From Candidatus Saccharimonadales bacterium (GTDB lineage Bacteria; Patescibacteriota; Saccharimonadia; Saccharimonadales; OMJO01), in contig DATIID010000001.1 of NCBI GenBank assembly GCA_035480035.1, positions 201,323 through 265,322 on the forward strand: 64,000 bases of DNA, in the 5' to 3' direction. Positions 2,611-45,920 of the stretch are shown here, piece by piece; the stretch's first letter is position 1; each line of letters begins with the position of its first letter. A model generated the notes under the pieces. It made no database searches. It was not told the origin of the DNA and saw only the letters and a list, made by a program, of their open reading frames with translations. Both the position numbers and the translations under genes were made by a program.

Positions 2611-3320
2611 CGCGCTTTTAAACCAGGGATGGCCTCCGGCAATTGTCGATTATCCTTGTAAGCTCGTGGTAACATTTGTTCTGGCGTCCAATTTGCAATA
2701 ATCGTCGGCAAGTCACTACCGCTTTGGTACTTACCACTAAAACCATCATCACGGCCTTCACCATAACTGCCCTCCACTGGACCGGTCTCGTGAAATATAG
2801 CTTGACCAATCCGTTCGCCAACCGGTAATAATACGGTTTCTTTCTGGTTAAGGTTAAAAATTTCTAAAGTTAAGCGATTAATATAACCTGGATCAACCCA
2901 ACCAGCATCAAAACAAACAGCAATACCGTTACGACCCCAGCTGGAGCGTGACTTTAGCTCATAGGCACCGGGCGGCTTAATACCAAAAAACTCATGAGTG
3001 TGAGCTAAAATCCGTTCGCCTGGTCGGATTGGAATGACCGGATGATCTGGCGGTATACCCTTTAGTAAGCTGGCCCCATTTTTAAAACACCAATCTTGAT
3101 GAGTCACGGCTTGGTGTGGACCAGAAAAATAGCGGTTTACATCACTCTCGTCGAATGGATTATAAATGGTATGGTCGCCATCGCGTTCCGTTCGGTAATA
3201 GTAGTAGCCAAGTGTTACATCGAGACTGGCGTGAGCGACATGCTTTGGCATAAACGGCTCACAAACAATATGACCCTCTTTAATGGCTGCCCGAATTTGC
3301 TGATTGCTATAAACTCCCAC
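2607..3320 (-). CDS. dcd: dCTP deaminase / dUTPase-superfamily protein
   Basis: Motifs IRAAIKEGHIVCEPF and GWVDPGYINRLTLEIFN are typical of Dcd. I prefer the GTG start at 3320, preceded by AGGAGGG (3324-3330). The track TTG start at 3374 would translate a hairpin/promoter-like region. Confidence 0.75.
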   Translation of the reverse strand: MGVYSNQQIRAAIKEGHIVCEPFMPKHVAHASLDVTLGYYYYRTERDGDHTIYNPFDESDVNRYFSGPHQAVTHQDWCFKNGASLLKGIPPDHPVIPIRPGERILAHTHEFFGIKPPGAYELKSRSSWGRNGIAVCFDAGWVDPGYINRLTLEIFNLNQKETVLLPVGERIGQAIFHETGPVEGSYGEGRDDGFSGKYQSGSDLPTIIANWTPEQMLPRAYKDNRQLPEAIPGLKAR

Positions 3321-4034: not shown

Positions 4035-5000
4035 CTACACTTCGGCGGGGCTAACTAAAATTGACGGGCCCATTGTAGTGGTCACGTAAAGGCTGGTTAC
4101 ATAATTGCCTTTGATGCTTGAAGGTTTAGCCGATTTAATGCTACTTAAAATTGCCTGGCAGTTTTGAATTAACTTATCTTTGCCAAAACTAACCTTACCG
4201 CAGGCGACATGGATAATGCCGGTACTGTCAATTCGGTATTCAATACGACCGGCTTTGGCTTCGGTCACCGCTTTTTCGATATTGGTAGTAACTGTACCGC
4301 TTTTGGGGTTTGGCATTAGGCCTTGAGGACCAAGCAGACGAGCGAACTTGCCAAGTTTGCTCATGTTGGTTGGGGTAGCGATCAAAATATCAAAGTTAAT
4401 CGTGGCTTTTTCAAGCTGTCCCAAGAATTCATCGCTACCAGCAATATCGGCGCCGGCTTTCTTGGCTTTAGCGACGTCATCTGGTTCAGCAAAAACGGCT
4501 ACCCGTACTGTTTTGCCCGTCCCGGCTGGCAGAACTACGGTTTGACGAATATTTTGGTCGGCCTGTTTAGGATCAACACCTAATCTAACATGTAGCTCAA
4601 CACTGGCATCAAACTTAACTGGGCTGGTTTTTAGGGCTAGTTCAATAGCTTCAGCCAGGCTGTAAACCTTGCCTTTTTCAATCAATGTGGAGACTTTTTT
4701 ATAAGCTTTACTACGACGTTCTAAACGTGACCGGGCCGATTTAACGCTAACTTTAGGTTTAGCCGGTGACTCATCAGTTTTAGACGCAGTTTTACGCTCC
4801 TCTTTGGCTTGTTTTACTTCAGTCTCAACTAGTGCTTTGTGACTGCGCTTACCTGCTTTAGCCTTGGTTACTTCTCTTTGGACTGGCTTTTCAGCTGTTT
4901 TAGTCTCAGGCTGACTACTTTCTTGATCAATCCCATCTTTAATTTCTTCCTTTACTTTTTTAGCTACTTTAGCGTTTGCGACTTTCTTGGCTTCAGCCAT
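4035..5000 (-). CDS. rplA: 50S ribosomal protein L1 (uL1) with a ~105-aa K/A/E-rich N-terminal extension
   Basis: The uL1 core starts near aa 106 (SKAYKK..., LGPQGLMPNPKSGTV). ATG at 5000 is preceded by AAGGAGG with a 5-nt spacer. The track GTG start at 5042 is rejected. Confidence 0.9.
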   Translation of the reverse strand: MAEAKKVANAKVAKKVKEEIKDGIDQESSQPETKTAEKPVQREVTKAKAGKRSHKALVETEVKQAKEERKTASKTDESPAKPKVSVKSARSRLERRSKAYKKVSTLIEKGKVYSLAEAIELALKTSPVKFDASVELHVRLGVDPKQADQNIRQTVVLPAGTGKTVRVAVFAEPDDVAKAKKAGADIAGSDEFLGQLEKATINFDILIATPTNMSKLGKFARLLGPQGLMPNPKSGTVTTNIEKAVTEAKAGRIEYRIDSTGIIHVACGKVSFGKDKLIQNCQAILSSIKSAKPSSIKGNYVTSLYVTTTMGPSILVSPAEV

Positions 5001-30324: not shown

Positions 30325-30980
30325 GATTTAGCCTCGACTTTTGCCTTAGCTTGACCAAGCCATTCCGAGATAATACCTAAAGCCTTCTGACTGATTATAA
30401 TCTGATCGGCGTTAAGGATATCATAAACGTTTAAATACTTCGCTTGGACGGCCTTGACGTTGCTTAGATTTCGAGTGGCTCTTTCGACTAGCTCATTTTT
30501 AACACTCACCACAATTAAAACATTACCTTTAGCCTCCAGCTTCTCAAGTAATTTTACGGTTGACTTAACTAACCCATCCTTGCTATCAAATGTCTCTATA
30601 ACTTTAAGTTGGTCAGATTTGGCAGCTAAGCTTAGGGCTTGACGAAGGGCTTGACGTTTGGCTGACTGGTTAAGTTTATGTGAGAAATTTTCTTGACCAG
30701 TTGGCCCAAAGACAATACCACCGCCACGCCAAATTGGGTTTCGTGACGAGCCAAAACGAGCTCGGCCGGTACCTTTTTGGCGCCATGGCTTACGGCCACC
30801 ACCCCGAATTAGCCCGCGGGTCTTTGTAACCGCCAAATTACTTCGACCATTGGCTAGATATGTAACATAAGCTGCTTTTAGTGAGTCGTGGTTTTTTATT
30901 GTTAAGTCAAAAATTGACTTATCTAATTTAATGCTAGCCGAGGCTTTATTGCCAGACTTAGTGTAAGTACTGACACTCAT
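30321..30980 (-). CDS. rplD: 50S ribosomal protein L4 (uL4)
   Basis: uL4 loop region (GGGRKPWRQKGTGRAR). Confidence 0.95.
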   Translation of the reverse strand: MSVSTYTKSGNKASASIKLDKSIFDLTIKNHDSLKAAYVTYLANGRSNLAVTKTRGLIRGGGRKPWRQKGTGRARFGSSRNPIWRGGGIVFGPTGQENFSHKLNQSAKRQALRQALSLAAKSDQLKVIETFDSKDGLVKSTVKLLEKLEAKGNVLIVVSVKNELVERATRNLSNVKAVQAKYLNVYDILNADQIIISQKALGIISEWLGQAKAKVEAKS

Positions 30981-31591
30981 GACCCTATACCCCTAACAAC
31001 TACAATACTTTTACGAGGACCTGGTACTGCTCCAGAAACACCAATGACATTTAGCTCTGGATCAACCAAAGCAATGGATAAATTCTTAATAGTCACTTGT
31101 TCATGACCCATCTGGCCGGCCATTTTCTTACCTTTTAGGATGTGTTGGGGATACATTGAACCAATTGAGCCGGGACGTCGATAACTACGACCACCGTGCG
31201 TTTTACGACCACGATGAAAATTATGCCGTTTAATTGTGCCGGCAAAACCCTTACCCTTACTAGTGCTCGTAACATCAACCTTGTCACCAACATTAAAAGT
31301 GTCGGCTCCTAAACTTTGGCCGACACTGATGTCTTCTGAGATGTCATTGACTCGAATTTCGCGCGCAATCTTTGGCATTATTTTGGCTTTCTTGAAATGA
31401 CCGCTAAGCGCCTTGCCGAGATTTTTGGTCGTTTCACTGCCGAGTTGAATAGCTTGATAACCATCGTTATCGGTGGTTTTTATTTGAGTAACTACATTTG
31501 GGTTAACCGATAAAATAGTGACAGCTTGAACAGCACCGTTATCACTTATGGTGCTAGTCATGCCAACTTTTCGAGCAATTAAAGCCTTCAC
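30977..31591 (-). CDS. rplC: 50S ribosomal protein L3 (uL3)
   Basis: GTG start. MKALIARKVGMTS... and the FAGTIKRHNF motif. Confidence 0.95.
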   Translation of the reverse strand: MKALIARKVGMTSTISDNGAVQAVTILSVNPNVVTQIKTTDNDGYQAIQLGSETTKNLGKALSGHFKKAKIMPKIAREIRVNDISEDISVGQSLGADTFNVGDKVDVTSTSKGKGFAGTIKRHNFHRGRKTHGGRSYRRPGSIGSMYPQHILKGKKMAGQMGHEQVTIKNLSIALVDPELNVIGVSGAVPGPRKSIVVVRGIGS

Positions 31592-31762: not shown

Positions 31763-32053
31763 TTACTTTAAGACTCGTAAATATATGCCGACTTGTGACC
31801 AAAAGCCGATCAACATTGAGATAAGCAGTATCACATATTCTAATTTACGATCAATCTTAAATTTATCTCGACTGGCGATAATCAAACCAATAATTAAACC
31901 CACCGGAAGTGGCAATTGTTTAGTCGCGTCAACATTAACTAATCGGACCCATTGAAAACCAACTATCAAATATATGACCAATTTTAGAAAAAACGCCCCG
32001 TCGGCTTCTGTTTGGGTGTATTTACGCTTAACTGTTTTAGACATTAGTAACAT
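31763..32053 (-). CDS. Hypothetical small membrane protein (96 aa, ~3 TM helices)
   Basis: Three hydrophobic segments. Lies between rpsJ and rplC. No SD seen. Confidence 0.55.
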   Translation of the reverse strand: MLLMSKTVKRKYTQTEADGAFFLKLVIYLIVGFQWVRLVNVDATKQLPLPVGLIIGLIIASRDKFKIDRKLEYVILLISMLIGFWSQVGIYLRVLK

Positions 32054-32083
32054 TAAAGCACATGCTTAAATATTTGTGGGATT

Positions 32084-32767
32084 TTAAGGAGTCGTTAAGC
32101 ACTCGATGTGCTCATCAATTAAACCGTTTACAATTTCTTTATCAATTGAACGCCATGGGTGTAAATCACCTAAGTTTCCATTAACACCATCTAGCGCTAA
32201 GACTTGCCCGTCGTGCTTATCACCGGGCGTTATGGCTACCCCAGTGAAAAGCGGCACGATAGTAGCACCAGGTTTTTCTTTAGTTTGACCTTCGGGTGTA
32301 TAGCCATTTAAGTCATATGGTGTATCCCGTAAACAGCTGTTGGTTTTGGCGGCAATCTCATGTTCATCATGACGATCCAATTCACCAAGCCAACCAATAA
32401 CACCTTTGCCATCATATTTTGGCCAACCGTCAGGCGGATTAATGTAGGTCATATTATATCTAGCAACAAAATTTGATTGTTGATAGTTATCATTAGCGTT
32501 AACTCTTATGGCTTCACGAGCTTGACGAGTGAATTCCGGCGTTGGTTTTGGCATATGGCCAAAAAAACCAGTATTTTGTTGAATCGGCACAGTAGCAACC
32601 AGAGCTGCAGCTAAGACCAAAGCTCCAATCCGGTGATTACGTACACGGTGTTTTTCAGGACTAAATTGGTCTTTAGCGATATCAAGCAGAGTCGGATCTT
32701 TTGCAATGACTCTAGTATCTGCGTCTTGATCATAGAGCATCGTTCCATTGCCTTCGGATTTAGTCAT
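32084..32767 (-). CDS. Hypothetical single-pass membrane protein (227 aa) with an extracytoplasmic C-terminal domain
   Basis: TM helix IGALVLAAALVATVPI at aa ~47-62. No recognised catalytic motif. Lies between rpsJ and rplC. Confidence 0.65.
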   Translation of the reverse strand: MTKSEGNGTMLYDQDADTRVIAKDPTLLDIAKDQFSPEKHRVRNHRIGALVLAAALVATVPIQQNTGFFGHMPKPTPEFTRQAREAIRVNANDNYQQSNFVARYNMTYINPPDGWPKYDGKGVIGWLGELDRHDEHEIAAKTNSCLRDTPYDLNGYTPEGQTKEKPGATIVPLFTGVAITPGDKHDGQVLALDGVNGNLGDLHPWRSIDKEIVNGLIDEHIECLTTP

Positions 32768-32779
32768 ACTTTAATTTGA

Positions 32780-32808
32780 ATTATAGACTTTGATTTTGGG
32801 TTTGGCTA
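32780..32808 (-). promoter_or_regulatory. Candidate promoter for the inserted 227-aa gene
   Basis: Minus strand reads TAGCCA (32803-32808, overlapping the rpsJ stop), a 17-nt spacer, then a perfect TATAAT (32780-32785) 12 nt before the ATG. Confidence 0.35.
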
Positions 32809-33225
32809 CATCTTGATTTCGGCATCACAACCAGCTGGCAGTGATAGATTCATAAGCGAATCAATGGTCTTGGTGGTTGGGTCAGTAATGTCAATTAAAC
32901 GTTTGTGAACCCGCATTTCAAACTGTTCACGGCTTTTTTTGTAAACATGTGGACTTTTAATGACTGTGTAAACTGTTTTTTTAGTTGGTAGTGGAATTGG
33001 ACCAGAAATCGTTGCGCCAGTACGAAGGGCAGTATCAATAATTTGCTTAGCCGACTGGTCAATTACCTTATGATCATATGCCTTTAGACGGATCCTAATC
33101 CGCTGCTTAACTGGTGCGTCAGCTTTTTTGGGTGCGTCTTTTTTGATTGTTACGTGAGCTTTGGCTGGCGATTCAACTGACTTTGTATCTTCAACTTTAT
33201 CTGCAGCTTGTTTAGCTTCGGCCAT
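32806..33225 (-). CDS. rpsJ: 30S ribosomal protein S10 (uS10) with a ~40-aa K/A-rich N-terminal extension
   Basis: uS10 core [19 protein letters not shown]... AAGGAG lies 5 nt upstream of the ATG. Confidence 0.93.
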
Positions 33226-34675: not shown

Positions 34676-35188
34676 TTAGACGGCCCGTAATTTATCATAT
34701 TGTTCAACTCGGTTTTTTTCGTCAACCAGCTCAACCGATAAATTGCCTTGGTTAGCTAAGTATCTTAAAGCTTTTTGGCCATAAGAAGCCCATTTCAAAG
34801 CTAATTCTGGATCTTCAAGTCTAGTATAACCAAGATCGTAATACTGCCAATTGTCATCATCTGAAATCGATTGGTCAGGGTGGACAATGGTGGTGGCGAT
34901 AATAATATGGTCTTCGGTTAATAGCGAATGGGTTTGGTACTCACCACTACCAATTTGACGTTTTTGAATATCAAACAATACACCTCTAAAAAAATAACCT
35001 TCATCAGTATAATTTTCAATGTCTTGATCATCAGGTAATACAATTTTGGGCAAGGTTAATGGGTTTAGATTGTCAACGTAATTAGTTATTAAATCACGCG
35101 CTAGCTGGCCGAGTAGTAATTTGGTCTCGTCTGAGGCCTCTAAATACATCTCAAGCATAGCCTGCGGTTCAGTTGGCAAATCCTCCAT
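34676..35188 (-). CDS. Hypothetical acidic protein (170 aa) between fusA and tuf
   Basis: Clean ATG ORF, D/E-rich, with no TM segment, no recognised motif and no clear SD. Confidence 0.65.
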   Translation of the reverse strand: MEDLPTEPQAMLEMYLEASDETKLLLGQLARDLITNYVDNLNPLTLPKIVLPDDQDIENYTDEGYFFRGVLFDIQKRQIGSGEYQTHSLLTEDHIIIATTIVHPDQSISDDDNWQYYDLGYTRLEDPELALKWASYGQKALRYLANQGNLSVELVDEKNRVEQYDKLRAV

Positions 35189-35234: not shown

Positions 35235-37322
35235 TTATTTAGCATTTTTGGCAATGATGGCTTCGGCGACGTTGTTTGGTACGTCAGCATAGTGGTCAAG
35301 TTCCATGCTAGAACTGGCCCGGCCTTGGGTCATACTGCGCAAGTTAGTTGTGTAGCCAAACATTTCGCCCAGGGGTACGAAAGCTGTAATTTCTTTAATG
35401 CCAGCCTGTAAATCTTCCATTGATTCAACACGACCACGCTTACTATTCAGGTCGCCAATCACATCACCCATGAAGTTTTCGGGCGTAACAACAACGACTT
35501 TCATAATTGGCTCGAGCAACACGGGGTTGGCCTTTTTGACACCTTCTTGAAGCGCCATCGAGCCAGCAATTTTGAAAGCCATCTCACTCGAGTCTACGTC
35601 GTGATAACTACCAAAGTACAGTTCGGCTTTTATATCAACAACTGGATAACCGGCCAAAACACCGTTGGCCATGGCTTCTTTAATACCTTCTTCAACCGGC
35701 TTAATGTACTCTTGCGGAACCACACCACCTTTAATCGAATTTATAAACTCAAAACCTTTGCCAGCCTCGTTTTGGCTAAGTCGTAACCAAACATCACCGT
35801 ATTGACCACGACCACCAGATTGACGAATAAATTTACCTTGAACTTCTACGCCGTCCTTGCGAATGGTTTCGCGATAAGCTACTTGCGGCTGACCAACATT
35901 GGCTTCAACGGTAAACTCGCGCTTCATTCGGTCAACAATAATCTCCAGGTGCAGCTCGCCCATTCCGCTAATAATGGTTTGGGTTGTTTCATCGTCTACG
36001 CGGATTCTAAAAGTCGGATCTTCTTCAGCCAAACGTTGAAGTGCCAGGCTCATTTTCTCCTGGTCGGCTTTGGTTTTGGGCTCGATGGCAATGGAGACTG
36101 GTGGTTCAGGGAAGGTTATGCTTTCCAGAACAATTGGGTTATTTGGGTCACAAAGCGTATTGCCGGTAGTTGTACCCTTTAGCCCAACAACAGCCGCAAT
36201 ATCACCAGCGTCAACCTCGGTTACATCTTCGCGTTTGTCAGCTTGCATACGAACAATGCGGCCGACGCGTTCTTTTTCACCAGTTGAGCTATTCAATATG
36301 TAGCTGCCGGCGGTGACTTTACCAGAATAAACTCTGAAGAATGCCAACTTACCGACAAATGGATCGGTCGCAATCTTAAAGGCTAAGGCTGCAAAGGGTT
36401 CGCTAGAATCAGGCTTACGCTCGATTTCGTCGCCAGTTTTTGGGTGTGTCCCCCAAGTTGAACTGCGATCTAGCGGCGAAGGCAAGAAATCGTTAACGGC
36501 ATCAAGCAGTTTTTCGACAATTACACCACGACCATCTCCACCGCTTACTGCAAAGAATTTACCAGTCAAGACAGCCGAGCGAATGGCTTGTTTAATGTCA
36601 TCTTCAGATAAACCATCTTCGCCAACCTCAAAGTATTTCTCAAGCATCTTCTCGTCTTCAGCCACGGCGTTTTCAATCAGTAAACTTCGGTATTTCTTGA
36701 CTTGATCGGTCATGTCTTCTGGAATTTCACTTTCAGTCAGTTCATGGTCGACAAATTCTTTGTAGGTGTAGGCCTTCATGGTAATAAGATCAACTACACC
36801 TTTAACGCTTTGTTCAAAACCAATTGGTAAGTGGATTGGGAAGGCTCGTTTGTTCAGGCGGTTGTGAATTGAGTCGAGTGACTTATAAAAATCACCACCA
36901 GTTTGGTTAATCTTGTTAATAAAGCAAATTCGAGGTACTTGGTACTTATCGGCTTGGCGCCAAACTGTTTCGGACTGCGATTCAACACCCATTTTGCCGT
37001 CGAAGACTACCACTGCGCCATCGAGTACACGCAATGAGCGCTCCACTTCAACTGTGAAGTCAATGTGACCAGGCGTATCGATAATGTTGATTTTGTGGTC
37101 TTTCCAATAACAAGTCACTGCAGCGCTGGTAATGGTAATGCCACGCTCTTTTTCCTGGGCCATCCAGTCAGTGGTGGTTTCGCCCTCATGAACAGCACCA
37201 ATTTTGTGTTTTAACCCTGTTCGATAAAGGATACCTTCGGTCGTTGTAGTTTTACCGGCGTCAATATGAGCAATAATGCCAATGTTCCTAAACTGTTTTA
37301 AATCGTATTTCTTCTCTGCCAT
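35235..37322 (-). CDS. fusA: Elongation factor G
   Basis: [17 protein letters not shown] and NKIN motifs. 695 aa. Confidence 0.98.
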
Positions 37323-37556
37323 TTACTGTTCCTCAGCTGTTAATCTAGCTAATTCTTCTAACATACCTAAGTGTTCACCAGAATCGTTAACATCACGTCC
37401 AGCAGACCTAACTTCGTTTCTTGCCAATATTTGACTGATAAAACCCCCCGCTTCAAGCCGTCTTGCATAAGCTTCATCCAAACGATCTTCAGCCGCGTTC
37501 ATTTGTGCACGCGCTGCTTCAAGATCTGGACTGATGAGACCTGCCTCGCCAACCAT
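37323..37556 (-). CDS. Hypothetical 77-aa helical A/E/R-rich protein wedged between rpsG and fusA
   Basis: The ATG overlaps the rpsG stop by 1 nt (TAATG). Its TAA is immediately followed by the fusA ATG (TAAATG). Its 3' end supplies the GAGGAA SD for fusA. Confidence 0.55.
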   Translation of the reverse strand: MVGEAGLISPDLEAARAQMNAAEDRLDEAYARRLEAGGFISQILARNEVRSAGRDVNDSGEHLGMLEELARLTAEEQ

Positions 37557-38035
37557 TAGAACCTTGCGAAGTGAGCAAAAGCTCGGTTAGCATCGGCCAT
37601 TTTATGAACGTCTTCGCGTTTTTTAACAGCGTTGCCGGTGTTGTTATAGGCATCAACGAACTCTAAGGCCAATCGATCTTCCATGCTCATGCCCTTACGA
37701 TCCCGAGCGGCCGAAACCAACCACATAAGTGTAAGGTGCTGCTGACGCTGACCTTTTACTTCAAATGGAATTTGATAGTTAGCGCCACCAACTCTACGCG
37801 AACGAGTTTCCAAATGAGGCTGAATGTTTTTAATTGCTTGGTCAAATACCTCAATCGGGTTCTTGACCTTAACTTTGTCGGCGGCTTTTTGCATACCGTT
37901 ATAAACTAAGCGCTCGGCGATTTGTTTCTTGCCATTGAGCATCACACGATTAATCAAGCGTTGAACCATGACACTGTTATATAAGCGATCTGGCGGAATT
38001 TCTCGAACTAATGATTTAGTCTTATGTCTAGGCAT
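37556..38035 (-). CDS. rpsG: 30S ribosomal protein S7 (uS7)
   Basis: uS7 sequence (LINRVMLNGKKQIAERLVY...). Confidence 0.97.
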   Translation of the reverse strand: MPRHKTKSLVREIPPDRLYNSVMVQRLINRVMLNGKKQIAERLVYNGMQKAADKVKVKNPIEVFDQAIKNIQPHLETRSRRVGGANYQIPFEVKGQRQQHLTLMWLVSAARDRKGMSMEDRLALEFVDAYNNTGNAVKKREDVHKMADANRAFAHFARF

Positions 38036-38445
38036 TATTTACCTTTCTTGGCACCGTATTTAGAGCGACCACGTTTGCGGTTGGCTACTCCTTGAAGATC
38101 TAATGTGCCCCGTACGATGTGATAACGCACACCTGGTAAGTCTTTAACACGGCCGCCACGGATGGTTACTACGGCGTGCTCCTGGAGGTTGTGACCTTCA
38201 CCACCAATATAAGCCCAGACTTCATAACCGTTAGTTAATCGAACACGAGCAACTTTACGAAGCGCTGAATTTGGCTTTTTTGGAGTCTTGGTCGTAACTT
38301 TAACGCAAACACCACGCTTGAATGGTGACGGTTTCTCGTAGTGCTTGGTCTTTAGGTTATTGACCACGCGCTGAAGCGCCGGTGACTTGCTTTTTGACGT
38401 CACTGGCTTACGCGGTTTACGCACTAACTGATTAATTGTCGGCAT
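38035..38445 (-). CDS. rpsL: 30S ribosomal protein S12 (uS12)
   Basis: [12 protein letters not shown]... and [24 protein letters not shown]. Confidence 0.98.
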
Positions 38446-38521: not shown

Positions 38522-38550
38522 ATTATAGCAGTTTTAAGCTTCAGCGGCAA
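38522..38550 (-). promoter_or_regulatory. Candidate str-operon promoter overlapping the rpoC 3' end
   Basis: Minus strand reads TTGCCG (38545-38550), a 17-nt spacer, then a perfect TATAAT (38522-38527). A GC-rich leader follows before rpsL. Confidence 0.45.
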
Positions 38551-41500
38551 CTGCGTGTTCAGCTTCTTCGGCTTCCAGCTCTTCTTCGGTACGATAGCCG
38601 GTACCAACTGGAATGCGGCGACCAAGAATGACGTTTTCCTTCAGACCAAACAAATGATCGACTTTGCCACTAGTGGCAGCGGCAATTAGAACTCGAGTGG
38701 TGTCCTGGAAACTGGCGGCACTTAGGAATGAATCAGTCGATAAACTGGCTTTGGTAATGCCCAGTAGCAACTGGGTAAATTTGGCTGGTTGTTTGCCGTC
38801 GGCAGTTAGTTTTTCATTAGCTTCAACAACCGCTAATTTACTGACAATATCACCGGTGACAAATTCGCTATCACCTGATTCCTCAATTTGAACTCGACTA
38901 AACATCTGACGAACGATAATCTCAAGGTGTTTATCGGCAATGTTTTGACCCTGACTGGCAAAAATTCCCAAAATTTCGTTCATGATGTAACGTTGAGTTG
39001 CTTCAACGCCCTGTAAACGCATTAACTCGTGAAGGTTGATTGAACCATTCGTCAGCTTCTGACCGGCTACAACCGTGTCACCGTCATTCACAACCAAGTT
39101 TTTAAAGCCTGGGATCTCATAACGAGCGGCACTTTTACTGGTCGGTGAGATGGTAATCAGCTTTTTAGTAATGTGAACTTTGCCGGCTATAGGAGCGGTG
39201 ATCGGATCTGCGCCTTCGTCATTTGCGGCCAGAACATCTCCAGCATTAACTTCACTATTGTTGGCAACTTGAGGTTTGCGGTTATCGAGTGGCAATTCGA
39301 TCTTTTCATTTTCGTCAGCTGTAACCTGGACTACATAGTGATCGCCCTCTTCCCAAGCTTTTACAGCTCCGGAAATTTCAGATAGGTAGGCTTGGCCTTT
39401 TGGCGTACGCACCTCGAATAACTCTTCGACACGAGGCAGCCCGGTGGTAATGTCTTCTCCGACTACACCACCAGAGTGGAAGGTTCGAAGTGTTAACTGA
39501 GTACCAGGTTCACCAATACTTTGAGCAGCTATTACACCAACCGGATGGTGCGGTGCAACTAATTCGCCGGTTGCCGGATCGATACCATAAGATTTACGGC
39601 TAATGCCACGAACGCTACTACAGCTCAAGACACTCATGATTTTAACGCCATCCAGACTTCCGTCAGCATCAATCTTATCGGCAATTTCTTGAGTTATGAG
39701 ATGGCCTTTTTTAGCTATGTCGCCGACTTTTTCGGCGGTAAACCGCCCAACTAAACGTGAGGCGTACGGTACGCCAATATCAGCTGAATCGCTGCGGTAA
39801 ATTGCAAAACCGGGGTCAGCGTAATCCTCGTCAATGGTAAAGACATCTTGGCTAACATCGACTAAACGACGGGTTAGGTAGCCAGAGTCGGCTGTCTTTA
39901 GAGCAGTGTCGATCATACCTTTTCGAGCACCACGAGTAGCCGTAAAGTACTCAAGTGGAGTTAGGCCATACTTATAGTTTGAGCGAATTGGCAATTCAAT
40001 CGCCCGGCCGGTAGCATCAGTGGTGACACCAAGCAACCCAACAGCGGTCATCACCTGGCCAATGTTACCTCGTGCCCCAGAGACTACCGCAATCGACATG
40101 GAACTGTCTTCTTCGGCAAATTGCTCACTTAAGGTCTGCTGTACGGTAGAAGTAGCATCAGTCCAGGTTTCGACGGTCAAGCGGTGTCGCTCGTCGTCTG
40201 TGATGAAACCCTGATCATATTGAGCACTAATGTCAGCAGCCTTGACTTCACCTTCTTTAAGGATTTCCTTAAGGCCTTTAATGTCATTGAAGTCTCCCAT
40301 ACCCATCGACAAGCCAGAAATCGTCGCATAAACAAAGCCAATGTCTTTGAGGTCGTCAGCAATTTCGGCAGTTTTGTCTTGACCGTATTGGCTATAGGCT
40401 AACGCCATAGCCGCACCAAGACGTTTTTTGGTCATGGCTTCATCAAGAAATGGAAAGTCTTCAGGAAAAATCTCGTTGAACAAAAATCGACCAAGTGTTG
40501 ACTTATAAACTTGGCCTCGAAACGGTAAACTAACTCGGCTTTGAAGGCTGATAACCTTAGCGTCGTAAGCCATCAAGGCTTCAGCTAAACTCGAATAATT
40601 CCTGACTGTCTTGTCAATACCGGGTCGGTCATAAGTTAAGTAGTAACAGCCCAGTACGATATCTTGGTCAATATGTAGAATTGGCGATCCGTCGGCCGGT
40701 TTCAGCAAGTTGCGATTGCTGGCCATGATGTCTTGGGCTTCTTGTTGGGCATAATCTGACAATGGCAAGTGAACAGCCATTTGGTCACCATCAAAATCAG
40801 CGTTAAAACCCTTACAAACTAAGGGGTGTAGCTGTATGGCCTTACCTTCGATTAGTACCGGTTGAAATGCTTGAATACTCAAGCGGTGAAGACTGGGTGC
40901 CCGGTTCAGCAAAACGTATTTGCCCATAATGACTTCGTCCAAAGCGTCCCAAACTTCGACTTCGCCAGTCTCAATCATGCGGGTAGCGCTTCGAATGTTG
41001 TGAGCATGCTCGTTAATGATCAAATAACCAATGACAAACGGCTTGAACAATTCCAGCGCCATCATTTTAGGCAGGCCGCATTGGTAAATCTTTAGTTCTG
41101 GACCAGCCACGATGACCGAACGACCGGAGTAGTCAACCCGTTTGCCAAGTAGGTTTTGACGAAAACGACCTTGTTTACCTTTAAGCATATCACTCAGACT
41201 TTTGAGCCGGCGTCTTTGGCCAGTGGCGGCTACAGCTCGGCCGGAACGAGCGTTGTTATTGTCAATTAAAGCATCGACTGCCTCTTGAAGCATACGTTGT
41301 TCATTACGACGAATGACTTCCGGAGCATTGAGCTCAATTAACTTCTTTAATCGGTTGTTGCGATTAATCACTCGACGGTACAAATCATTCAAGTCGCTGG
41401 TTGCGAACCGGCCACCGGTTAGTTGAACCATTGGTCGGAGGTCTGGTGGGATAACTGGTAGGACAGTCATGCACATACTGTTCGGTTTAATGCCAGCCCG

Positions 41501-42352
41501 ATCCATACTTTCAAGTAGTCGTAAGCGCTTCATGATTTTCTTTTTGCGCTGACCCTTGGCCTCTTCGGCTTCGGCACTTAACAGTTTAATTAGTTTGGTT
41601 AAGTCAATCTCATCAAGCAGTTCTTTAAGTGCTGCGCCACCCATACCAACTGTAACCAACGAACGAAGCTCATCAGGGAGATCACGGTATTCAGCTTCAC
41701 TGATTAAACGTAGCTTCTCTAGACTTTCAATTTGAGTACGAAAAGTGTCGTATTCAGCAGTTAAGTCATCTGTTTCTTTAGTCTGAGCTTCGGCAATCGC
41801 CTTAACATCACCACCTTCATTGCTAGCTTCTTTTTCGTAGCGTAATTTAATGGCTTCTTTGGCGGCGGTAAATTCGGCCTCTTTATCTTGGGAAATCTTG
41901 ACTAGCTTGTCAGACTCAACCGACTTGATAATGTAACTAGCAAAGTAAGCCACGCGCTCCAGGTTCTTTACTGTCATACCAAGCAATAAGCCGATAGCCG
42001 ATGGTGTACCTCGCAAAAACCAGATGTGAGCAACAGGTGTCGCTAAGCTAATATGGCCCATGCGTTCACGTCTAACGATTGATTTAGTAACAATCTCGCC
42101 GTTTTTATCGACAGCTGCTTCACGAGAGCGAACACCCTTATACTTGGCATCGTGGGGATTGATATCTTTAACCGGTCCAAAAATCCGTTCACAAAACAAA
42201 CCATCACGCTCAGGTTTTTGAGTTCGGTAATTAATTGTTTCGGGCTTTGTAACTTCGCCATGACTCCATTCCAAAATGTCCTCAGGGCTAGCCACAGCTA
42301 AACGTACTGCATCAAAATCAGCAATATTGGTTCCATATGAATAGCGTCGCAT
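38534..42352 (-). CDS. rpoC: DNA-directed RNA polymerase subunit beta'
   Basis: NADFDGDQM catalytic motif. ATG at 42352 is preceded by AAGGAGG with a 6-nt spacer, 1 nt after the rpoB stop. The track TTG start at 42379 is rejected. Confidence 0.97.
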
Positions 42353-42353
42353 G

Positions 42354-45300
42354 TTAGGCCTCCTTGCTTTCGTCTTCAATACTTATTAGATTGACACCGT
42401 CCGTGCCATCAGTAGCTGGCAACTCGTCATCGAGCCCCATATTATCGAACTCGCCCATGACGGCATCTTCAGTGACATCGACATCTGAGGTTACTGGTGT
42501 CGGCACATCAACATCTGATTGATGAGCAGCTTCGTCCTTAATGTTTTCGGCTAAGACCGCTTCAGCATCGATTACCGCATTTGAGGTAATTAAGTCAACC
42601 TTTAGACCTAAGCCCTGTAGCTCTTTAACCAAAACGTTAAAGCTTTCAGGAACTTTCGGACCAACAATTTCAGTACCCTTAATGATTGATTCGTAAGCTT
42701 TACTACGACCATAGACATCATCAGATTTAATCGTCAGCATTTCTTGGAGAGTATGCGATGCGCCATACGCTTCCAAGGCCCAGACTTCCATTTCGCCAAA
42801 ACGTTGGCCACCATTTTGCGCCTTACCGCCTAACGGCTGCTGGGTCACCATAGTGTAAGGCCCGGTCGATCGCGCATGAATCTTATCAGCAATCATGTGG
42901 TTAAGCTTGATCATATACATACTGCCGACGGTAGTGCGCTCCGTAAATGCATCGCCAGTCCGACCATCGAAGAGTTGCTGCTTACCGTCATCCGGCAAAT
43001 TAGCTTCTCTAAGCAGTTGTTTGATTTTGGTTTCGTCAACACCATCAAATGAGGGGCTGGCGACTTTCATACCCAACGCTCGGGCGGCCATACCAAGATG
43101 AGTTTCGAATAACTGGCCAATGTTCATACGCGATGGTACACCAAGCGGGTTAAGCACAACTTCAACCGGCGTGCCATCTTCCATGAAGGGCATATCTTCT
43201 TCTGGTAAGATTCGGGCAATTACACCCTTGTTACCATGGCGACCACCCAACTTGTCACCGACCGCAATTTTGCGCATTTGAGCTACAAAGACTTGGATTT
43301 GCATGATCACGCCAGCTTTTAGTTCATGGCCATTAGCTCTCGAAAAGACCTTTACGCCAACAACTTTGCCATGCTTACCATTACTCATTCGCTGTGAGGT
43401 ATCACGAACTTCCTTGGCTTTTTCGCCAAAGATTGCTCTTAGCAATCGTTCTTCGCTACTAAGTTCTTGCTCACCTTTAGGCGTAATCTTGCCGACCAGG
43501 ATGTCGCCAGGATGGACTTCAGCGCCGATGCGGACAATACCTTCTTCGTCTAAGTGACGCAGGGCATCCTCACTAACGTTTGGAATATCACGAGTGACAA
43601 TTTCCGGACCAAGCTTGGTTTCACGGACTTCAACCATAAAGTCAACAATATGAACACTGGTTAGGGTGTCGTCTTCGACTAATTTACGGGACACAATAAT
43701 CGCATCTTCAAAGTTGTAGCCACTCCAAGGCATGAAGGCTATAATCAAATCTTTGCCCAGGGCAAGTTCACCATCGGCCACTGACATACCTTCAATAAGA
43801 GCGTCACCTTCTTTGACGGCTTGGCCACTGGTAACCACTACTTTTTGATTAATGCTAGTACCCTCGTTGCTCCTAACATAGTGTTGAGGTCGATAGGTTT
43901 TAGTATGACCTTTGTACTGGATCACTACCTCGTCAGCAGAAGCTTGTTTAACAGTACCGCGGCCTTCTGCCACAATTAATTGGCCGCTGTTACGGGCGGC
44001 TGTAGTTTCCAATCCGGTACCAACAATCGGCCCACTTGGCCTAACCAAAGGTACGGCTTGTCGTTGTTGGTTACTGCCCATAAGCGAGCGGTAAACGTAG
44101 TTCTTTTCGATAAATGGGATCAAGCCGGCGCTTGAACCAATGATTTGTTTGCGACTGGCGTCCATGTGTGTGACTTCGTCAGCATCAACTTCCCCGGACT
44201 TCAAATAACTACGAGCTGATACACGTGGATTAACAAAATGACGACTAGAATCAAACTCTTCGCTGGCGTTAACAATAACAGCTGACTCTTCTTCGGAAGC
44301 GTCAAGGTAGATCACTTTGTCGGTTACCTCGGCTTTAATCGGCCATGTCACTCTGGTCTTGACAGTCGCTAAACGCTTAGCTTGAACGGCTGTAATTTTC
44401 TGACCGGCCTTAACAATTGTTCGGCCTTTATCATCTTCCAAGTTAACACTGGCAATATGGCCTGGTGTATCTTTGGCGACCGCGGCATTTAGAACGACCC
44501 GATAGGGTGTTTCAATAAAACCATAGTCATTAATTCGAGCATAGCTGGCTAAGTTAAGAACCAATCCTATGTTAGCCCCTTCAGGTGTTTCGACAGCACA
44601 AATCCGGCCGTAGTGGGTAGCGTGGGCATCTCGAACCTCAAAACCAGCTCGTTCGCGACTTAAGCCACCTGGGCCCATCGAGCTCAGACGACGTTTGTGG
44701 GCAAGCTCACTTAATGGGTTAATCTGATCCATAAATTGGCTGAGCTGGGAACTGGCAAAGAATTCGCGAACAGCGGCAACCACTGGTCGGGCATTAATTA
44801 ATTGAGCTGGGGTAACTGTTTCGATTTCACTCATGCTCATGCGATCTTTGGTATTACGTTCCATTCGCAATAACCCAATTCGGAATTGGCGTTGGACTAA
44901 CTCGCCGACTAGTTTAACCCGACGGTTAGCTAGGCTATCGATATCATCGGCTGGCTCCTGGGTATTATTCAGGCGAATGATCTCAGCAATAATCGCAATC
45001 AGATCTTCGAGCCGCATAATACGGTTCTCGATTGTATTCGTTATATCCAGATTTAGACGTTTATTAATCTTGTAGCGTCCGACACGGCTAAAATCAAATC
45101 TTTTAAAGTTATAGAACATGTTTTCTAGTAAGCTACGGGCATTATCAACAGTGGCTAAGTCGCCAGGACGAAGTCGTCGATAAACCTCGATTAAAGCGTC
45201 GTTAGTGCCGCTAGTTGGATCTTTATCAAGTGTGGCTTGAACATAATTAAGTTGACCTTGATCAACATGAGCAAAACTGTCTTTGACTTGGTTTTCGGTC

Positions 45301-45920
45301 ATACCGAGAGCCCGAAGTAAAGTGGTGACGGCAATTTTACGTTTACGGTCAATTTTGACAAAAATTGCGCCGTTGGCAGCTGTTTCAAACTCTAGCCATG
45401 CGCCTCGTCCGGGAATAACTTTTGCACCGTAAAGATTTCTAGCACCTTTAGCATCAGCCGTGAAGAACACCCCGGCCGAGCGAATTAATTGCGATACCAC
45501 CACTCGTTCAGCTCCGTTAATTACAAAGGTGCCTCGCTCAGTCATCCATGGATAGTCACCCAAGTAAATTTCTTGCTGTTTAACCTCACCAGTAACTTTA
45601 TTAGTTAGTTCAACAGTGGCTTTTAAGGGAGCGTCGAAGCTAACATTATTCTCACGCGCTTCGGCCTCGGTCATCTTGGGTGCCTCAAACCGGTAATCTT
45701 TAAAAGTCAGTGATAATTTGGTGCCAGTATAGTCGTCAATCGGACTAATCTCGGCTAGTAGCTCACCCAAGCCCTCATCAACAAACCATTGAAACGAACG
45801 GTTTTGATGATCAACTAAATTAGGTAAGTCTAAAATGTCTTTGGTTTTGTTAAAGAATTGACGCGTCTTCGGCGCGGTTGCTAGTTTGGTGGTTTTGGCC
45901 ATAAGCGAATTTACTCCCAT
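42354..45920 (-). CDS. rpoB: DNA-directed RNA polymerase subunit beta
   Basis: Full-length beta subunit (e.g. GDKLGGRHGNKGV). An alternative ATG at 45902 (MAKTTK...) is possible. Confidence 0.97.
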   Translation of the reverse strand: MGVNSLMAKTTKLATAPKTRQFFNKTKDILDLPNLVDHQNRSFQWFVDEGLGELLAEISPIDDYTGTKLSLTFKDYRFEAPKMTEAEARENNVSFDAPLKATVELTNKVTGEVKQQEIYLGDYPWMTERGTFVINGAERVVVSQLIRSAGVFFTADAKGARNLYGAKVIPGRGAWLEFETAANGAIFVKIDRKRKIAVTTLLRALGMTENQVKDSFAHVDQGQLNYVQATLDKDPTSGTNDALIEVYRRLRPGDLATVDNARSLLENMFYNFKRFDFSRVGRYKINKRLNLDITNTIENRIMRLEDLIAIIAEIIRLNNTQEPADDIDSLANRRVKLVGELVQRQFRIGLLRMERNTKDRMSMSEIETVTPAQLINARPVVAAVREFFASSQLSQFMDQINPLSELAHKRRLSSMGPGGLSRERAGFEVRDAHATHYGRICAVETPEGANIGLVLNLASYARINDYGFIETPYRVVLNAAVAKDTPGHIASVNLEDDKGRTIVKAGQKITAVQAKRLATVKTRVTWPIKAEVTDKVIYLDASEEESAVIVNASEEFDSSRHFVNPRVSARSYLKSGEVDADEVTHMDASRKQIIGSSAGLIPFIEKNYVYRSLMGSNQQRQAVPLVRPSGPIVGTGLETTAARNSGQLIVAEGRGTVKQASADEVVIQYKGHTKTYRPQHYVRSNEGTSINQKVVVTSGQAVKEGDALIEGMSVADGELALGKDLIIAFMPWSGYNFEDAIIVSRKLVEDDTLTSVHIVDFMVEVRETKLGPEIVTRDIPNVSEDALRHLDEEGIVRIGAEVHPGDILVGKITPKGEQELSSEERLLRAIFGEKAKEVRDTSQRMSNGKHGKVVGVKVFSRANGHELKAGVIMQIQVFVAQMRKIAVGDKLGGRHGNKGVIARILPEEDMPFMEDGTPVEVVLNPLGVPSRMNIGQLFETHLGMAARALGMKVASPSFDGVDETKIKQLLREANLPDDGKQQLFDGRTGDAFTERTTVGSMYMIKLNHMIADKIHARSTGPYTMVTQQPLGGKAQNGGQRFGEMEVWALEAYGASHTLQEMLTIKSDDVYGRSKAYESIIKGTEIVGPKVPESFNVLVKELQGLGLKVDLITSNAVIDAEAVLAENIKDEAAHQSDVDVPTPVTSDVDVTEDAVMGEFDNMGLDDELPATDGTDGVNLISIEDESKEA

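What the first reader, a model, noticed from the sequence alone, without database searches (positions are those of the whole stretch)
37323..37556. A 77-aa helical ORF sits with no spacer between rpsG and fusA
The ATG shares one base with the rpsG TAA (TAATG), and the ORF's TAA directly abuts the fusA ATG (TAAATG). The ORF contains the GAGGAA SD used by fusA. It therefore replaces the usual S7-EF-G intercistronic spacer, which in E. coli is where S7 autoregulates translation of the str operon. The protein is A/E/R/L-rich and probably an alpha-helical hairpin. It may be a coupling device, a regulator or a new ribosome-associated factor.
Basis: partly seen in the sequence, partly recalled or inferred. 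Interest (0 to 1): 0.6.

Follow-up and report, generated by a model that had tools for sequence, protein, structure and literature searches.

The report
Small coupled gene between rpsG and fusA
A real but dispensable 77-residue helical protein gene sits between the ribosomal protein S7 and elongation factor G genes of a Saccharimonadales bacterium, in a fast-changing slot that most relatives fill with unrelated small genes, so even this very conserved operon has a hotspot of gene turnover.

Summary
A 77-codon ORF (37323-37556, minus strand) shares one base with the rpsG stop (TAATG), abuts the fusA start (TAAATG) and carries fusA's GAGGAA. It is a real protein-coding gene. Five clear homologues and one remote homologue exist, all in Saccharimonadia and all directly after rpsG. 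The frame is conserved. pN/pS is about 0.5 in the annotated frame and about 1.0-1.3 in the shifted frames. There is no RNA-structure signal. AlphaFold predicts a two-helix hairpin (pLDDT 88). No known family matches.

In E. coli, S7 represses at the rpsL-rpsG spacer, not at the 27-nt rpsG-fusA spacer.

The wider picture is the real finding. In 67 of 78 Saccharimonadia genomes and 55 of 70 metagenome loci, the rpsG-fusA gap is at least 150 nt. It is usually filled by small, mostly acidic, ATG-initiated ORFs coupled at both ends. They are extremely divergent: 116 of 203 are singletons, and many share a four-cysteine pattern. Copies of the S7 3' end and the fusA 5' end inside multi-ORF gaps mark duplication or recombination.

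The function of ORF77 is unknown. It is most likely a dispensable trans-acting binding protein.

The parts
38035..38445 (-). rpsL (ribosomal protein S12, 136 aa). Its stop overlaps the rpsG start, so this genome has no S12-S7 spacer.
   Evidence: ORF list. The same gene in the identical contig L087 carries PF00164.
37556..38035 (-). rpsG (ribosomal protein S7, 159 aa).
   Evidence: Pfam PF00177, E=1.2e-55.
37562..37565 (-). SD-like AAGG inside the last codons of rpsG (Ala-Arg = GCA AGG), 5 nt upstream of the ORF77 ATG. It is the probable ribosome-binding element for ORF77.
   Evidence: Sequence. Across relatives, an AGR Arg codon at this position goes with a start codon within 10 nt of the S7 stop (51/66 against 4/17 for CGN; Fisher p=7e-5, not corrected for phylogeny).
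37323..37556 (-). ORF77, a 77-aa acidic protein (pI 4.45). It is predicted to form a two-helix antiparallel hairpin. It founds a 5+1-member family found only directly downstream of rpsG in Saccharimonadia.
37329..37334 (-). GAGGAA Shine-Dalgarno for fusA, embedded in the last codons of ORF77 (GCT GAG GAA CAG TAA ATG).
   Evidence: Sequence. An SD-like tetramer lies 4-18 nt upstream of fusA in 89 of 111 long-gap loci.
35235..37322 (-). fusA (EF-G, 695 aa). It is contiguous and in frame with ORF77, separated only by the TAA stop.
   Evidence: Pfam GTP_EFTU, EFG_III, EFG_IV and EFG_C.

Best explanation
ORF77 is a real, co-transcribed and translationally coupled small-protein gene. It is not a regulatory spacer.

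It is one cassette in a variable slot between rpsG and fusA that is typical of Saccharimonadia. Ribosomes finishing S7 probably re-initiate at the overlapping ATG, helped by the SD-like AAGG that S7's own Ala-Arg codons provide. Ribosomes finishing ORF77 stop one base before the fusA ATG, on top of fusA's GAGGAA. The insert therefore keeps the S7-to-EF-G translational chain intact.

The product is an acidic two-helix hairpin. Its conserved positions (L12, E13, A15, AEDRL22-26, AGR52-54, V56, DSGE58-61) lie in two segments that should face each other in the middle of the hairpin. I infer that it acts in trans as a small binding module, possibly as a dimer. By genomic context its partner is most plausibly part of the translation machinery, but it is dispensable and lineage-restricted.

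Slot contents turn over through rapid divergence and through duplication or recombination anchored in the conserved S7 3' and fusA 5' ends.

Shown here: coding constraint, positional conservation, junction anatomy, slot statistics and recombination scars. Predicted only: the hairpin fold. Inferred: re-initiation, any dimer, and the binding partner.
For: Homologues: exhaustive phmmer and profile searches find five clear members (40-60% identity), each directly after rpsG. One remote member, L139, is in the same place.

Coding constraint: pN/pS is 0.43-0.65, against 0.09-0.17 for S7 and EF-G in the same genome pairs. Mean pN/pS is 0.52 in the annotated frame and 0.98 and 1.31 in the shifted frames. 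The ordering holds in all 10 pairs, and the other frames contain 4-13 stops. Substitutions rank third > first > second codon position. Twenty-two columns are invariant.

No RNA signal: MFE z-score +0.21. The alifold consensus is -6.9 kcal/mol over 255 columns. There is no Rfam hit at E<=10.

Fold: AlphaFold predicts helices 8-35 and 39-76, pLDDT 87.8.

Operon context: no terminator or promoter signal above chance.

Slot statistics: the gap is >=150 nt in 67/78 genome loci and 55/70 metagenome loci. An ORF starts within 13 nt of the S7 stop in 51/67 and 48/55 of these. One ORF spans the whole gap in 40/67 and 30/55. Of these first ORFs, 99 of 103 start with ATG. The sense-strand open frame covers >=80% of the gap in 46/71 loci, against 11/71 for the antisense strand.

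Coupling signal: the S7 Arg codon choice covaries with the downstream start.

Scars: copies of the S7 3' end or fusA 5' end lie between cassettes in L063, L081, L082, L130, L140 and L142.
Against: There is no expression evidence (Ribo-seq or proteomics) for any slot ORF.

Synonymous sites are saturated (pS 0.58-0.90), so the strength of selection is only bounded.

The family is tiny, with five clusters of one sequence each. Eleven of 78 related genomes have no slot ORF, and close relatives carry unrelated ORFs. Any function is therefore non-essential.

GC3 of ORF77 is 0.28 against 0.43 for rpsG and fusA. This fits a young or weakly expressed gene.

Helical hairpins are easy for AlphaFold to predict with confidence. 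Foldseek finds only generic hairpins, none at E<=0.001.

The binding-partner idea rests on genomic context alone. The SD covariation test and the NJ tree are not corrected for phylogeny.
Confidence: 0.6

Rival explanations
1. The ORF is a translated spacer and acts only in cis. What matters is that ribosomes travel from the S7 stop to the fusA start, which sets the EF-G:S7 translation ratio or keeps the mRNA unfolded. The peptide itself is incidental.
For: Position and tight coupling at both ends are conserved across about 150 loci, while the sequences are not: 116 of 203 slot ORFs are singletons. SD-like elements sit in the S7 3' end and in the ORF 3' ends. ORF77 has low GC3.
Against: The ORF77 family has 22 invariant columns, and pN/pS is about half that of the shifted-frame controls. 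The other major slot class keeps a four-cysteine architecture. Lengths range from 47 to 274 aa, and gaps hold 1-4 ORFs. Eleven genomes couple fusA directly to rpsG without any insert.
Confidence: 0.12
2. The ORF is a hitch-hiking accessory cassette unrelated to translation. Examples would be a factor in host-symbiont or phage conflict, or a selfish insert. It would exploit the strong constitutive expression and the recombination-friendly conserved flanks of the str operon.
For: The slot is hypervariable and shows clean presence/absence between close relatives: L029 against L043 have flanks 88-89% identical. Relatives carry tandem cassettes and recombination scars. The distribution on the EF-G tree is patchy. 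The proteins are small and mostly acidic, with median pI 5.0. Similar slots occur at rpsL-rpsG and fusA-tuf.
Against: There is no match to PADLOC, PHROGs, Pfam or NCBIfam. My reading of the translation shows no signal peptide or mobility gene. The slot is specific to junctions of translation genes, though other genomic regions were not surveyed.
Confidence: 0.2
3. The region is a non-coding regulatory spacer, for example an S7 operator or another structured RNA, and contains a chance ORF.
For: The rpsG-fusA gap is unusually long compared with the 27 nt in E. coli.
Against: The fold is no better than shuffled sequence (z=+0.21). There is no consensus structure and no Rfam hit. The frame is conserved in six loci with a codon-position substitution pattern. 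The E. coli S7 operator lies between rpsL and rpsG.
Confidence: 0.03
4. The ORF is an extension of a neighbouring protein. It would be a C-terminal extension of S7 by frameshifting, or an N-terminal extension of EF-G by TAA readthrough (ORF77 and fusA are in the same frame), or an assembly error.
For: ORF77 and fusA are contiguous and in frame. An SD-like element lies upstream of the S7 stop.
Against: In the other family members the spacing and frame relative to S7 and fusA differ. In L085 the spacers are 16 nt on each side, and three loci have a second ORF before fusA. My reading of the sequence finds no slippery heptamer. The DNA is identical in three assemblies.
Confidence: 0.02

Closest known systems
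E. coli str operon autoregulation by S7 (S7-interacting RNA in the rpsL-rpsG spacer; coupled S12-S7-EF-G translation)
   Same: Same operon and gene order. Both rely on translational coupling between adjacent cistrons.
   Different: The E. coli operator is a structured RNA between rpsL and rpsG (PMC3616713). Here rpsL and rpsG overlap, and the element lies between rpsG and fusA. It encodes a protein and has no structure signal.
Unknown-function genes embedded in r-protein operons, e.g. GU_19737823 between rpsF-rpsR and rplI in Pseudomonadales (Vanni et al. 2022, PMC9132574) and, from my own knowledge, ybxF (L7Ae-like) upstream of rpsL in the Bacillus subtilis str operon
   Same: A lineage-restricted extra gene at a fixed position inside an otherwise conserved ribosomal gene cluster.
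   Different: According to the paper, the gene order around GU_19737823 is highly conserved across the genomes analysed. Here the position is conserved, but the occupant changes between close relatives and is often unrecognisable.
Small helical-hairpin proteins that act as dimers or binding modules, such as Rop, and the phage anti-activator Aqs1 (6v7u, rank 46)
   Same: Similar size and the predicted two-helix antiparallel fold.
   Different: Similarity is only generic. No Foldseek hit reaches E<=0.001 and there is no sequence relationship. This is a resemblance, not membership.
Variable gene slots between conserved core genes, such as phage morons and flexible genomic islets (my own knowledge)
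   Same: Conserved flanks, a hypervariable insert, presence/absence polymorphism and tandem cassettes.
   Different: The slot lies inside a core translation operon, is translationally coupled at both ends, and has no associated mobility genes.

Membership tests
Protein-coding gene (as opposed to a chance ORF) | The reading frame is conserved in relatives at the same locus. | tested here: met
   Five clear members and one remote member all lie directly after rpsG. The other frames carry 4-13 stops.
Protein-coding gene (as opposed to a chance ORF) | Purifying selection at the codon level. | tested here: met
   Mean pN/pS is 0.52 in frame against 0.98 and 1.31 in the shifted frames. Substitutions rank third > first > second codon position. 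Synonymous sites are saturated, so the magnitude is uncertain.
Protein-coding gene (as opposed to a chance ORF) | Evidence of translation (Ribo-seq or peptide detection). | not testable with these tools
   No expression data are available. PGAP annotates the ORF as hypothetical protein VLF39_01425.
Translationally coupled cistron | Stop and start codons overlap or abut at both junctions, with an SD inside the upstream cistron. | tested here: met
   TAATG and TAAATG junctions. AAGG lies 5 nt before the ORF ATG, and GAGGAA lies 6 nt before the fusA ATG. The Arg codon choice covaries with the downstream start across relatives.
Translationally coupled cistron | Downstream translation depends on upstream translation. 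| not testable with these tools
   This needs reporter or ribosome-profiling experiments.
S7 autoregulatory operator RNA (E. coli type) | Located in the rpsL-rpsG intercistronic region. | tested here: not met
   The element lies between rpsG and fusA, and rpsL and rpsG overlap here. The operator's location comes from PMC3616713.
S7 autoregulatory operator RNA (E. coli type) | A conserved RNA secondary structure. | tested here: not met
   z=+0.21. The alifold consensus is -6.9 kcal/mol. There is no Rfam hit at E<=10.
Known ribosomal proteins, translation factors, and EF-G-binding proteins | A match to a curated family profile. | tested here: not met
   ORF77 matches no Pfam family at E<=1 and no NCBIfam family at E<=10. 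The PDB profile search gives only coiled-coil noise, best E=0.05.
Anti-phage defence or phage protein families | A match to PADLOC or PHROGs profiles. | tested here: not met
   PADLOC gives no hits. The best PHROGs hit is E=0.13 to a family of unknown function.
Alpha-helical hairpin fold | Two long antiparallel helices. | tested here: met
   AlphaFold2 with a 5-sequence alignment predicts H8-35 and H39-76, pLDDT 87.8, pTM 0.71. This is a prediction only.

The most novel reading that the evidence does not exclude
The junctions of the Saccharimonadia str operon (rpsG-fusA, and less often rpsL-rpsG and fusA-tuf) form a dedicated, translationally coupled cassette site. There, small proteins are born, duplicated, exchanged by recombination in the conserved flanks, and diversified. 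These proteins include helical hairpins like ORF77 and a four-cysteine, possibly zinc-binding class. They would act as lineage-specific modulators of S7, EF-G or the ribosome, perhaps driven by conflict with hosts, phages or translation-targeting toxins.
Probability: 0.2. Interest if true: 0.8.

Novelty: new variant of a known kind. Interest (0 to 1): 0.5.

Why it matters
The str operon is among the most conserved and compact gene clusters in bacteria, and its genes serve as phylogenetic markers. A whole class of ultra-small episymbiotic bacteria routinely carries hypervariable, coupled small ORFs inside it, with scars of cassette duplication and exchange. This shows that core translation operons can host rapid gene turnover.

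The slot offers a defined natural system for three questions: how small proteins are born and decay, how translational coupling tolerates inserts, and whether candidate phyla radiation (CPR) bacteria tune their reduced translation apparatus with lineage-specific small proteins.

There is also a practical point. These ORFs are easy to miss or misannotate, and the variable gap affects marker-gene synteny assumptions in metagenome-assembled genomes (MAGs).

Tried and rejected
1. Family searches of ORF77 found nothing informative: Pfam, NCBIfam, PHROGs, PADLOC and PDB sequence profiles.

3. A metagenome scan with the family alignment found no relative. A second scan, using S7 as the query, gave 80 loci and one remote member.

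4. An HMM and iterative searches tried to link ORF77 to the other Cys-free slot ORFs or to rpsL-rpsG slot ORFs. Only L139 was found.

5. There are no paralogues of ORF77 in the 64-kb window.

6. S7-ORF77 frameshift fusion or ORF77-EF-G readthrough was rejected, because frames and spacing differ among family members.

7. I considered an analogy to FusB-type EF-G-binding proteins (helical domain plus a Cys4 domain). Neither ORF77 nor ten Cys-class ORFs matched any EF-G-binding Pfam family at E<=1, so I did not pursue it.

8. A possible metal site in VHDSGEH was rejected, because neither His is invariant.

9. Literature searches found no description of ORFs between rpsG and fusA in Saccharibacteria.

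10. Comparing L087 and L088 with the window for population variation was uninformative, because they are 100% identical.

11. The first automated estimate of the fusA-tuf gap was unusable for most loci, because the EF-Tu query hit the GTPase domain of EF-G.

Full report
**Observation**

The genes in question are on the minus strand: rpoC 38534-42379, rpsL 38035-38445, rpsG 37556-38035, a 77-codon ORF at 37323-37556, and fusA 35235-37322. Pfam confirms S7 and EF-G.

Reading the sense strand:
- The rpsG stop TAA (37558-37556) shares base 37556 with the ORF's ATG.
- The ORF's TAA (37325-37323) is followed at once by the fusA ATG.
- GAGGAA (37334-37329) lies in the ORF's last codons.

An open frame covering 228 of the 233 gap bases was reached by 0.5% of shuffles. 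The same DNA is 100% identical in two further independent assemblies.

**Is it a gene?**

ORF77 has no Pfam, NCBIfam, PHROGs, PADLOC or PDB relative. The word-indexed protein search found only ORF77 itself, annotated as a hypothetical protein of a Candidatus Saccharimonadales MAG.

The exhaustive phmmer search of 1.84 billion representatives found two small homologues. A profile search added two more. All four lie directly downstream of rpsG and upstream of fusA:
- In L085 the gene stands alone, as in the window.
- In L081, L082 and L084 a second, cysteine-containing ORF follows it.

Constraint in the alignment:
- There are 22 invariant columns, including AEDRL and AGR-V-DSGE.
- Between the same genome pairs, ORF77 proteins are 40-60% identical with pN/pS 0.43-0.65. 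S7 and EF-G are 82-92% identical with pN/pS 0.09-0.17.
- As an internal control, mean pN/pS is 0.52 in the annotated frame and 0.98 and 1.31 in the two shifted frames. The ordering holds in all ten pairs, and the other frames carry 4-13 stops.
- Substitutions rank third > first > second codon position.

The RNA alternative fails:
- The MFE z-score is +0.21.
- The consensus structure of five members is -6.9 kcal/mol over 255 columns.
- Rfam gives nothing at E<=10.

So the frame is conserved and the constraint is at the codon level. No expression data exist, and synonymous sites are saturated, so the strength of selection is only bounded.

**The protein**

AlphaFold2 with the five-sequence alignment predicts two long antiparallel helices (8-35 and 39-76) with mean pLDDT 87.8.

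Foldseek against PDB and BFVD returns only generic hairpins, none at E<=0.001. The protein is acidic, with pI 4.45 and net charge -8.

By my reading of the alignment, the invariant positions include small and hydrophobic residues at heptad-like spacing, flanked by conserved charges. They lie in two segments that should face each other in the middle of the hairpin. This fits a tightly packed hairpin with a conserved surface patch. It does not identify a partner.

In E. coli, S7 represses by binding the rpsL-rpsG intercistronic region (PMC3616713). That spacer is 96 nt, while the rpsG-fusA spacer is 27 nt. ORF77 therefore does not replace the S7 operator. In this genome rpsL and rpsG overlap, so there is no S12-S7 spacer at all.

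**Context: a variable slot**

With S7 as the query I fetched 80 Saccharimonadia genome loci and 80 metagenome loci.

| Measure | Genome loci | Metagenome loci |
|---|---|---|
| rpsG-fusA gap >=150 nt | 67 of 78 (median gap 320 nt) | 55 of 70 (median gap 328 nt) |
| ORF of >=40 aa starting within 13 nt of the S7 stop | 51 of 67 | 48 of 55 |
| One ORF spanning the whole gap | 40 of 67 | 30 of 55 |

Further features of the slot:
- 99 of 103 of these first ORFs start with ATG.
- The sense-strand open frame covers at least 80% of the gap in 46 of 71 loci, against 11 of 71 for the antisense strand. It beats 99% of shuffles in 51 of 71 loci.
- The proteins are almost all unrelated by sequence: 71 of 95 are singletons by BLASTP, and 116 of 203 remain singletons after all-against-all jackhmmer.
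- The largest family has 21 members and belongs to a class with an N-terminal Cys pair (often C-x2-4-C-P) and a C-terminal Cys pair. Ten of these match no Pfam family.
- The ORF77 family, with six members, is the second largest.
- Most slot proteins are acidic, with median pI 5.0.
- Eleven of 78 genomes have a short gap and no insert. On a rough EF-G NJ tree these are scattered.
- On that tree the window, L084 and L085 share a clade with genomes carrying other ORFs, and L082 sits elsewhere.
- L029 has no insert and L043 has a 92-aa Cys4 ORF. Their flanks are 88-89% identical, and they differ by a clean presence/absence exactly between the S7 stop and the fusA start.

**Coupling**

S7 ends with ...F-A-R-[FY]-stop. 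Where the next start codon lies within 10 nt of the S7 stop, the Arg codon is AGG or AGA in 51 of 55 loci. This creates GAGG or AAGG about 5-10 nt upstream of the start. Where the next start is further away, CGN is as common as AGR (13 against 15). Fisher p is 7e-5, without phylogenetic correction.

In the window, AAGG (37565-37562) lies 5 nt before the ORF77 ATG. An SD-like tetramer lies 4-18 nt upstream of fusA in 89 of 111 long-gap loci. No terminator or promoter signal exceeds chance.

I infer that ORF77 is translated by ribosomes coming off S7 and that it hands ribosomes on to fusA. This is anatomy and covariation, not an experiment.

**How the slot changes**

Inside multi-ORF gaps there are copies of the flanking gene ends:
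- L142 has a chimeric mini-ORF made of fusA codons 1-26 fused in frame to the last ~11 S7 codons.
- L140 has the fusA SD plus its first 17 codons (94% identical).
- L063 has a perfect 17-residue copy of the S7 C-terminus.
- L130 has a weaker fusA-start remnant.
- In the ORF77-family loci, L081 has an S7 3'-end copy and L082 has a degenerate fusA 5' copy. In each case it lies exactly between the ORF77-type gene and the Cys-type gene.

These scars are what tandem duplication or unequal recombination of the unit [S7 3' end - ORF - fusA 5' end] would leave. They suggest that ORF77-type and Cys-type genes are alternative cassettes that were joined in some genomes. The remote member L139 keeps only part of the family signature. 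This shows that rapid divergence also contributes to the lack of recognisable similarity.

**Best explanation and rivals**

I conclude, with confidence about 0.6, that ORF77 is a genuine, translationally coupled, dispensable small-protein gene. It is one cassette of this slot, and its hairpin product acts in trans as a binding module. Its partner is unknown. The translation machinery is the most plausible partner by context only.

The rivals are:
- **Translated spacer acting in cis (0.12).** The positional conservation fits, but the amino-acid constraint and the insert-free genomes do not.
- **Hitch-hiking conflict or accessory cassette unrelated to translation (0.2).** The turnover and scars fit, and no family evidence argues either way.
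- **Non-coding regulatory RNA (0.03).**
- **Extension of S7 or EF-G by recoding or error (0.02).**

**Novelty**

Searches of the held literature found no description of ORFs between rpsG and fusA in Saccharibacteria.

The closest precedents are unknown-function genes fixed inside r-protein clusters, such as GU_19737823 between rpsR and rplI in Pseudomonadales (PMC9132574). Patescibacteria are also generally rich in species-specific unknown genes, with 42,710 such clusters in the same paper. That richness lowers the surprise of one more orphan gene.

What is unusual here is the combination of four things: a fixed, coupled position inside the str operon, occupancy in about 80-86% of genomes, extreme turnover, and recombination scars. 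I rate it a new variant of a known kind, with interest 0.5.

Noticed in passing
window 34676-35188 (-): A 170-aa acidic orphan ORF lies between fusA and tuf. It has no Pfam family and no homologue in the fetched loci. At least 15 relatives also have 328-609 nt between fusA and tuf, and L082 has a 230-aa unknown ORF there.
   Followed up: partly
window 31763-32767 (-): Two orphan ORFs interrupt the S10 operon between rpsJ and the ORF at 30977-31591, which I take from its position to be rplC (not checked against Pfam). One is 227 aa. The other is 96 aa and hydrophobic, so probably a membrane protein. Neither has a Pfam match.
   Followed up: partly
window 32806-33225 (-): Ribosomal protein S10 is 139 aa. 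It has a Lys/Ala-rich N-terminal extension of about 43 residues ahead of the Pfam S10 domain (residues 44-138).
   Followed up: no
L003, L004, L016, L018, L024, L031, L032, L038, L045, L047, L062, L067 and others, just upstream of S7 (about 2690-3010 in loci with S7 at 3001): A second slot exists in relatives. Of 80 loci, 26 have 150-306 nt between rpsL and rpsG. In most of them a 56-104-aa ORF starts 1-5 nt after the S12 stop and abuts or overlaps the S7 start. About half have a four-Cys pattern, for example (T)LCER(G/D)xC ... C ... CP. The window lacks this slot.
   Followed up: partly
rpsG-fusA gaps of L004, L010, L015, L017, L043, L046, L057, L069, L077, L079, L081 (550-960), L082 (4325-4843) and others: The main class of slot ORFs is 75-170 aa long. 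It has an N-terminal Cys pair (often C-x2-4-C-P) and a C-terminal Cys pair (often C-x3-8-C-G-A/V). It is possibly zinc-binding or disulfide-bonded. jackhmmer links 21 of these ORFs. Ten tested ORFs have no Pfam match.
   Followed up: partly
L142 3351-3512; L140 about 3223-3273; L063 about 4469-4519; L081 about 527-545; L082 about 4271-4351: Copies of the fusA 5' end or the S7 3' end lie inside multi-ORF gaps. One is a chimeric fusA(1-26)-S7(C-terminal 11) mini-ORF in L142. These are scars of tandem duplication or recombination of slot cassettes.
   Followed up: yes
window 42354-42379: As listed mechanically, rpoC (TTG start, 1281 aa) overlaps the end of rpoB (42354-45920) by 26 nt. The true rpoC start is probably further downstream: the gene call in the identical contig L087 gives 1272 aa.
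   Followed up: no
L139 1254-1496: An 80-aa ORF starts 2 nt after the S7 stop and is a remote ORF77-family member (HMM 19.6 bits). It keeps A-x3-IGR-x-LA-x-R-x-V but lacks the AEDRL and AGR-V-DSGE motifs. This shows how quickly the family decays beyond recognition.
   Followed up: yes
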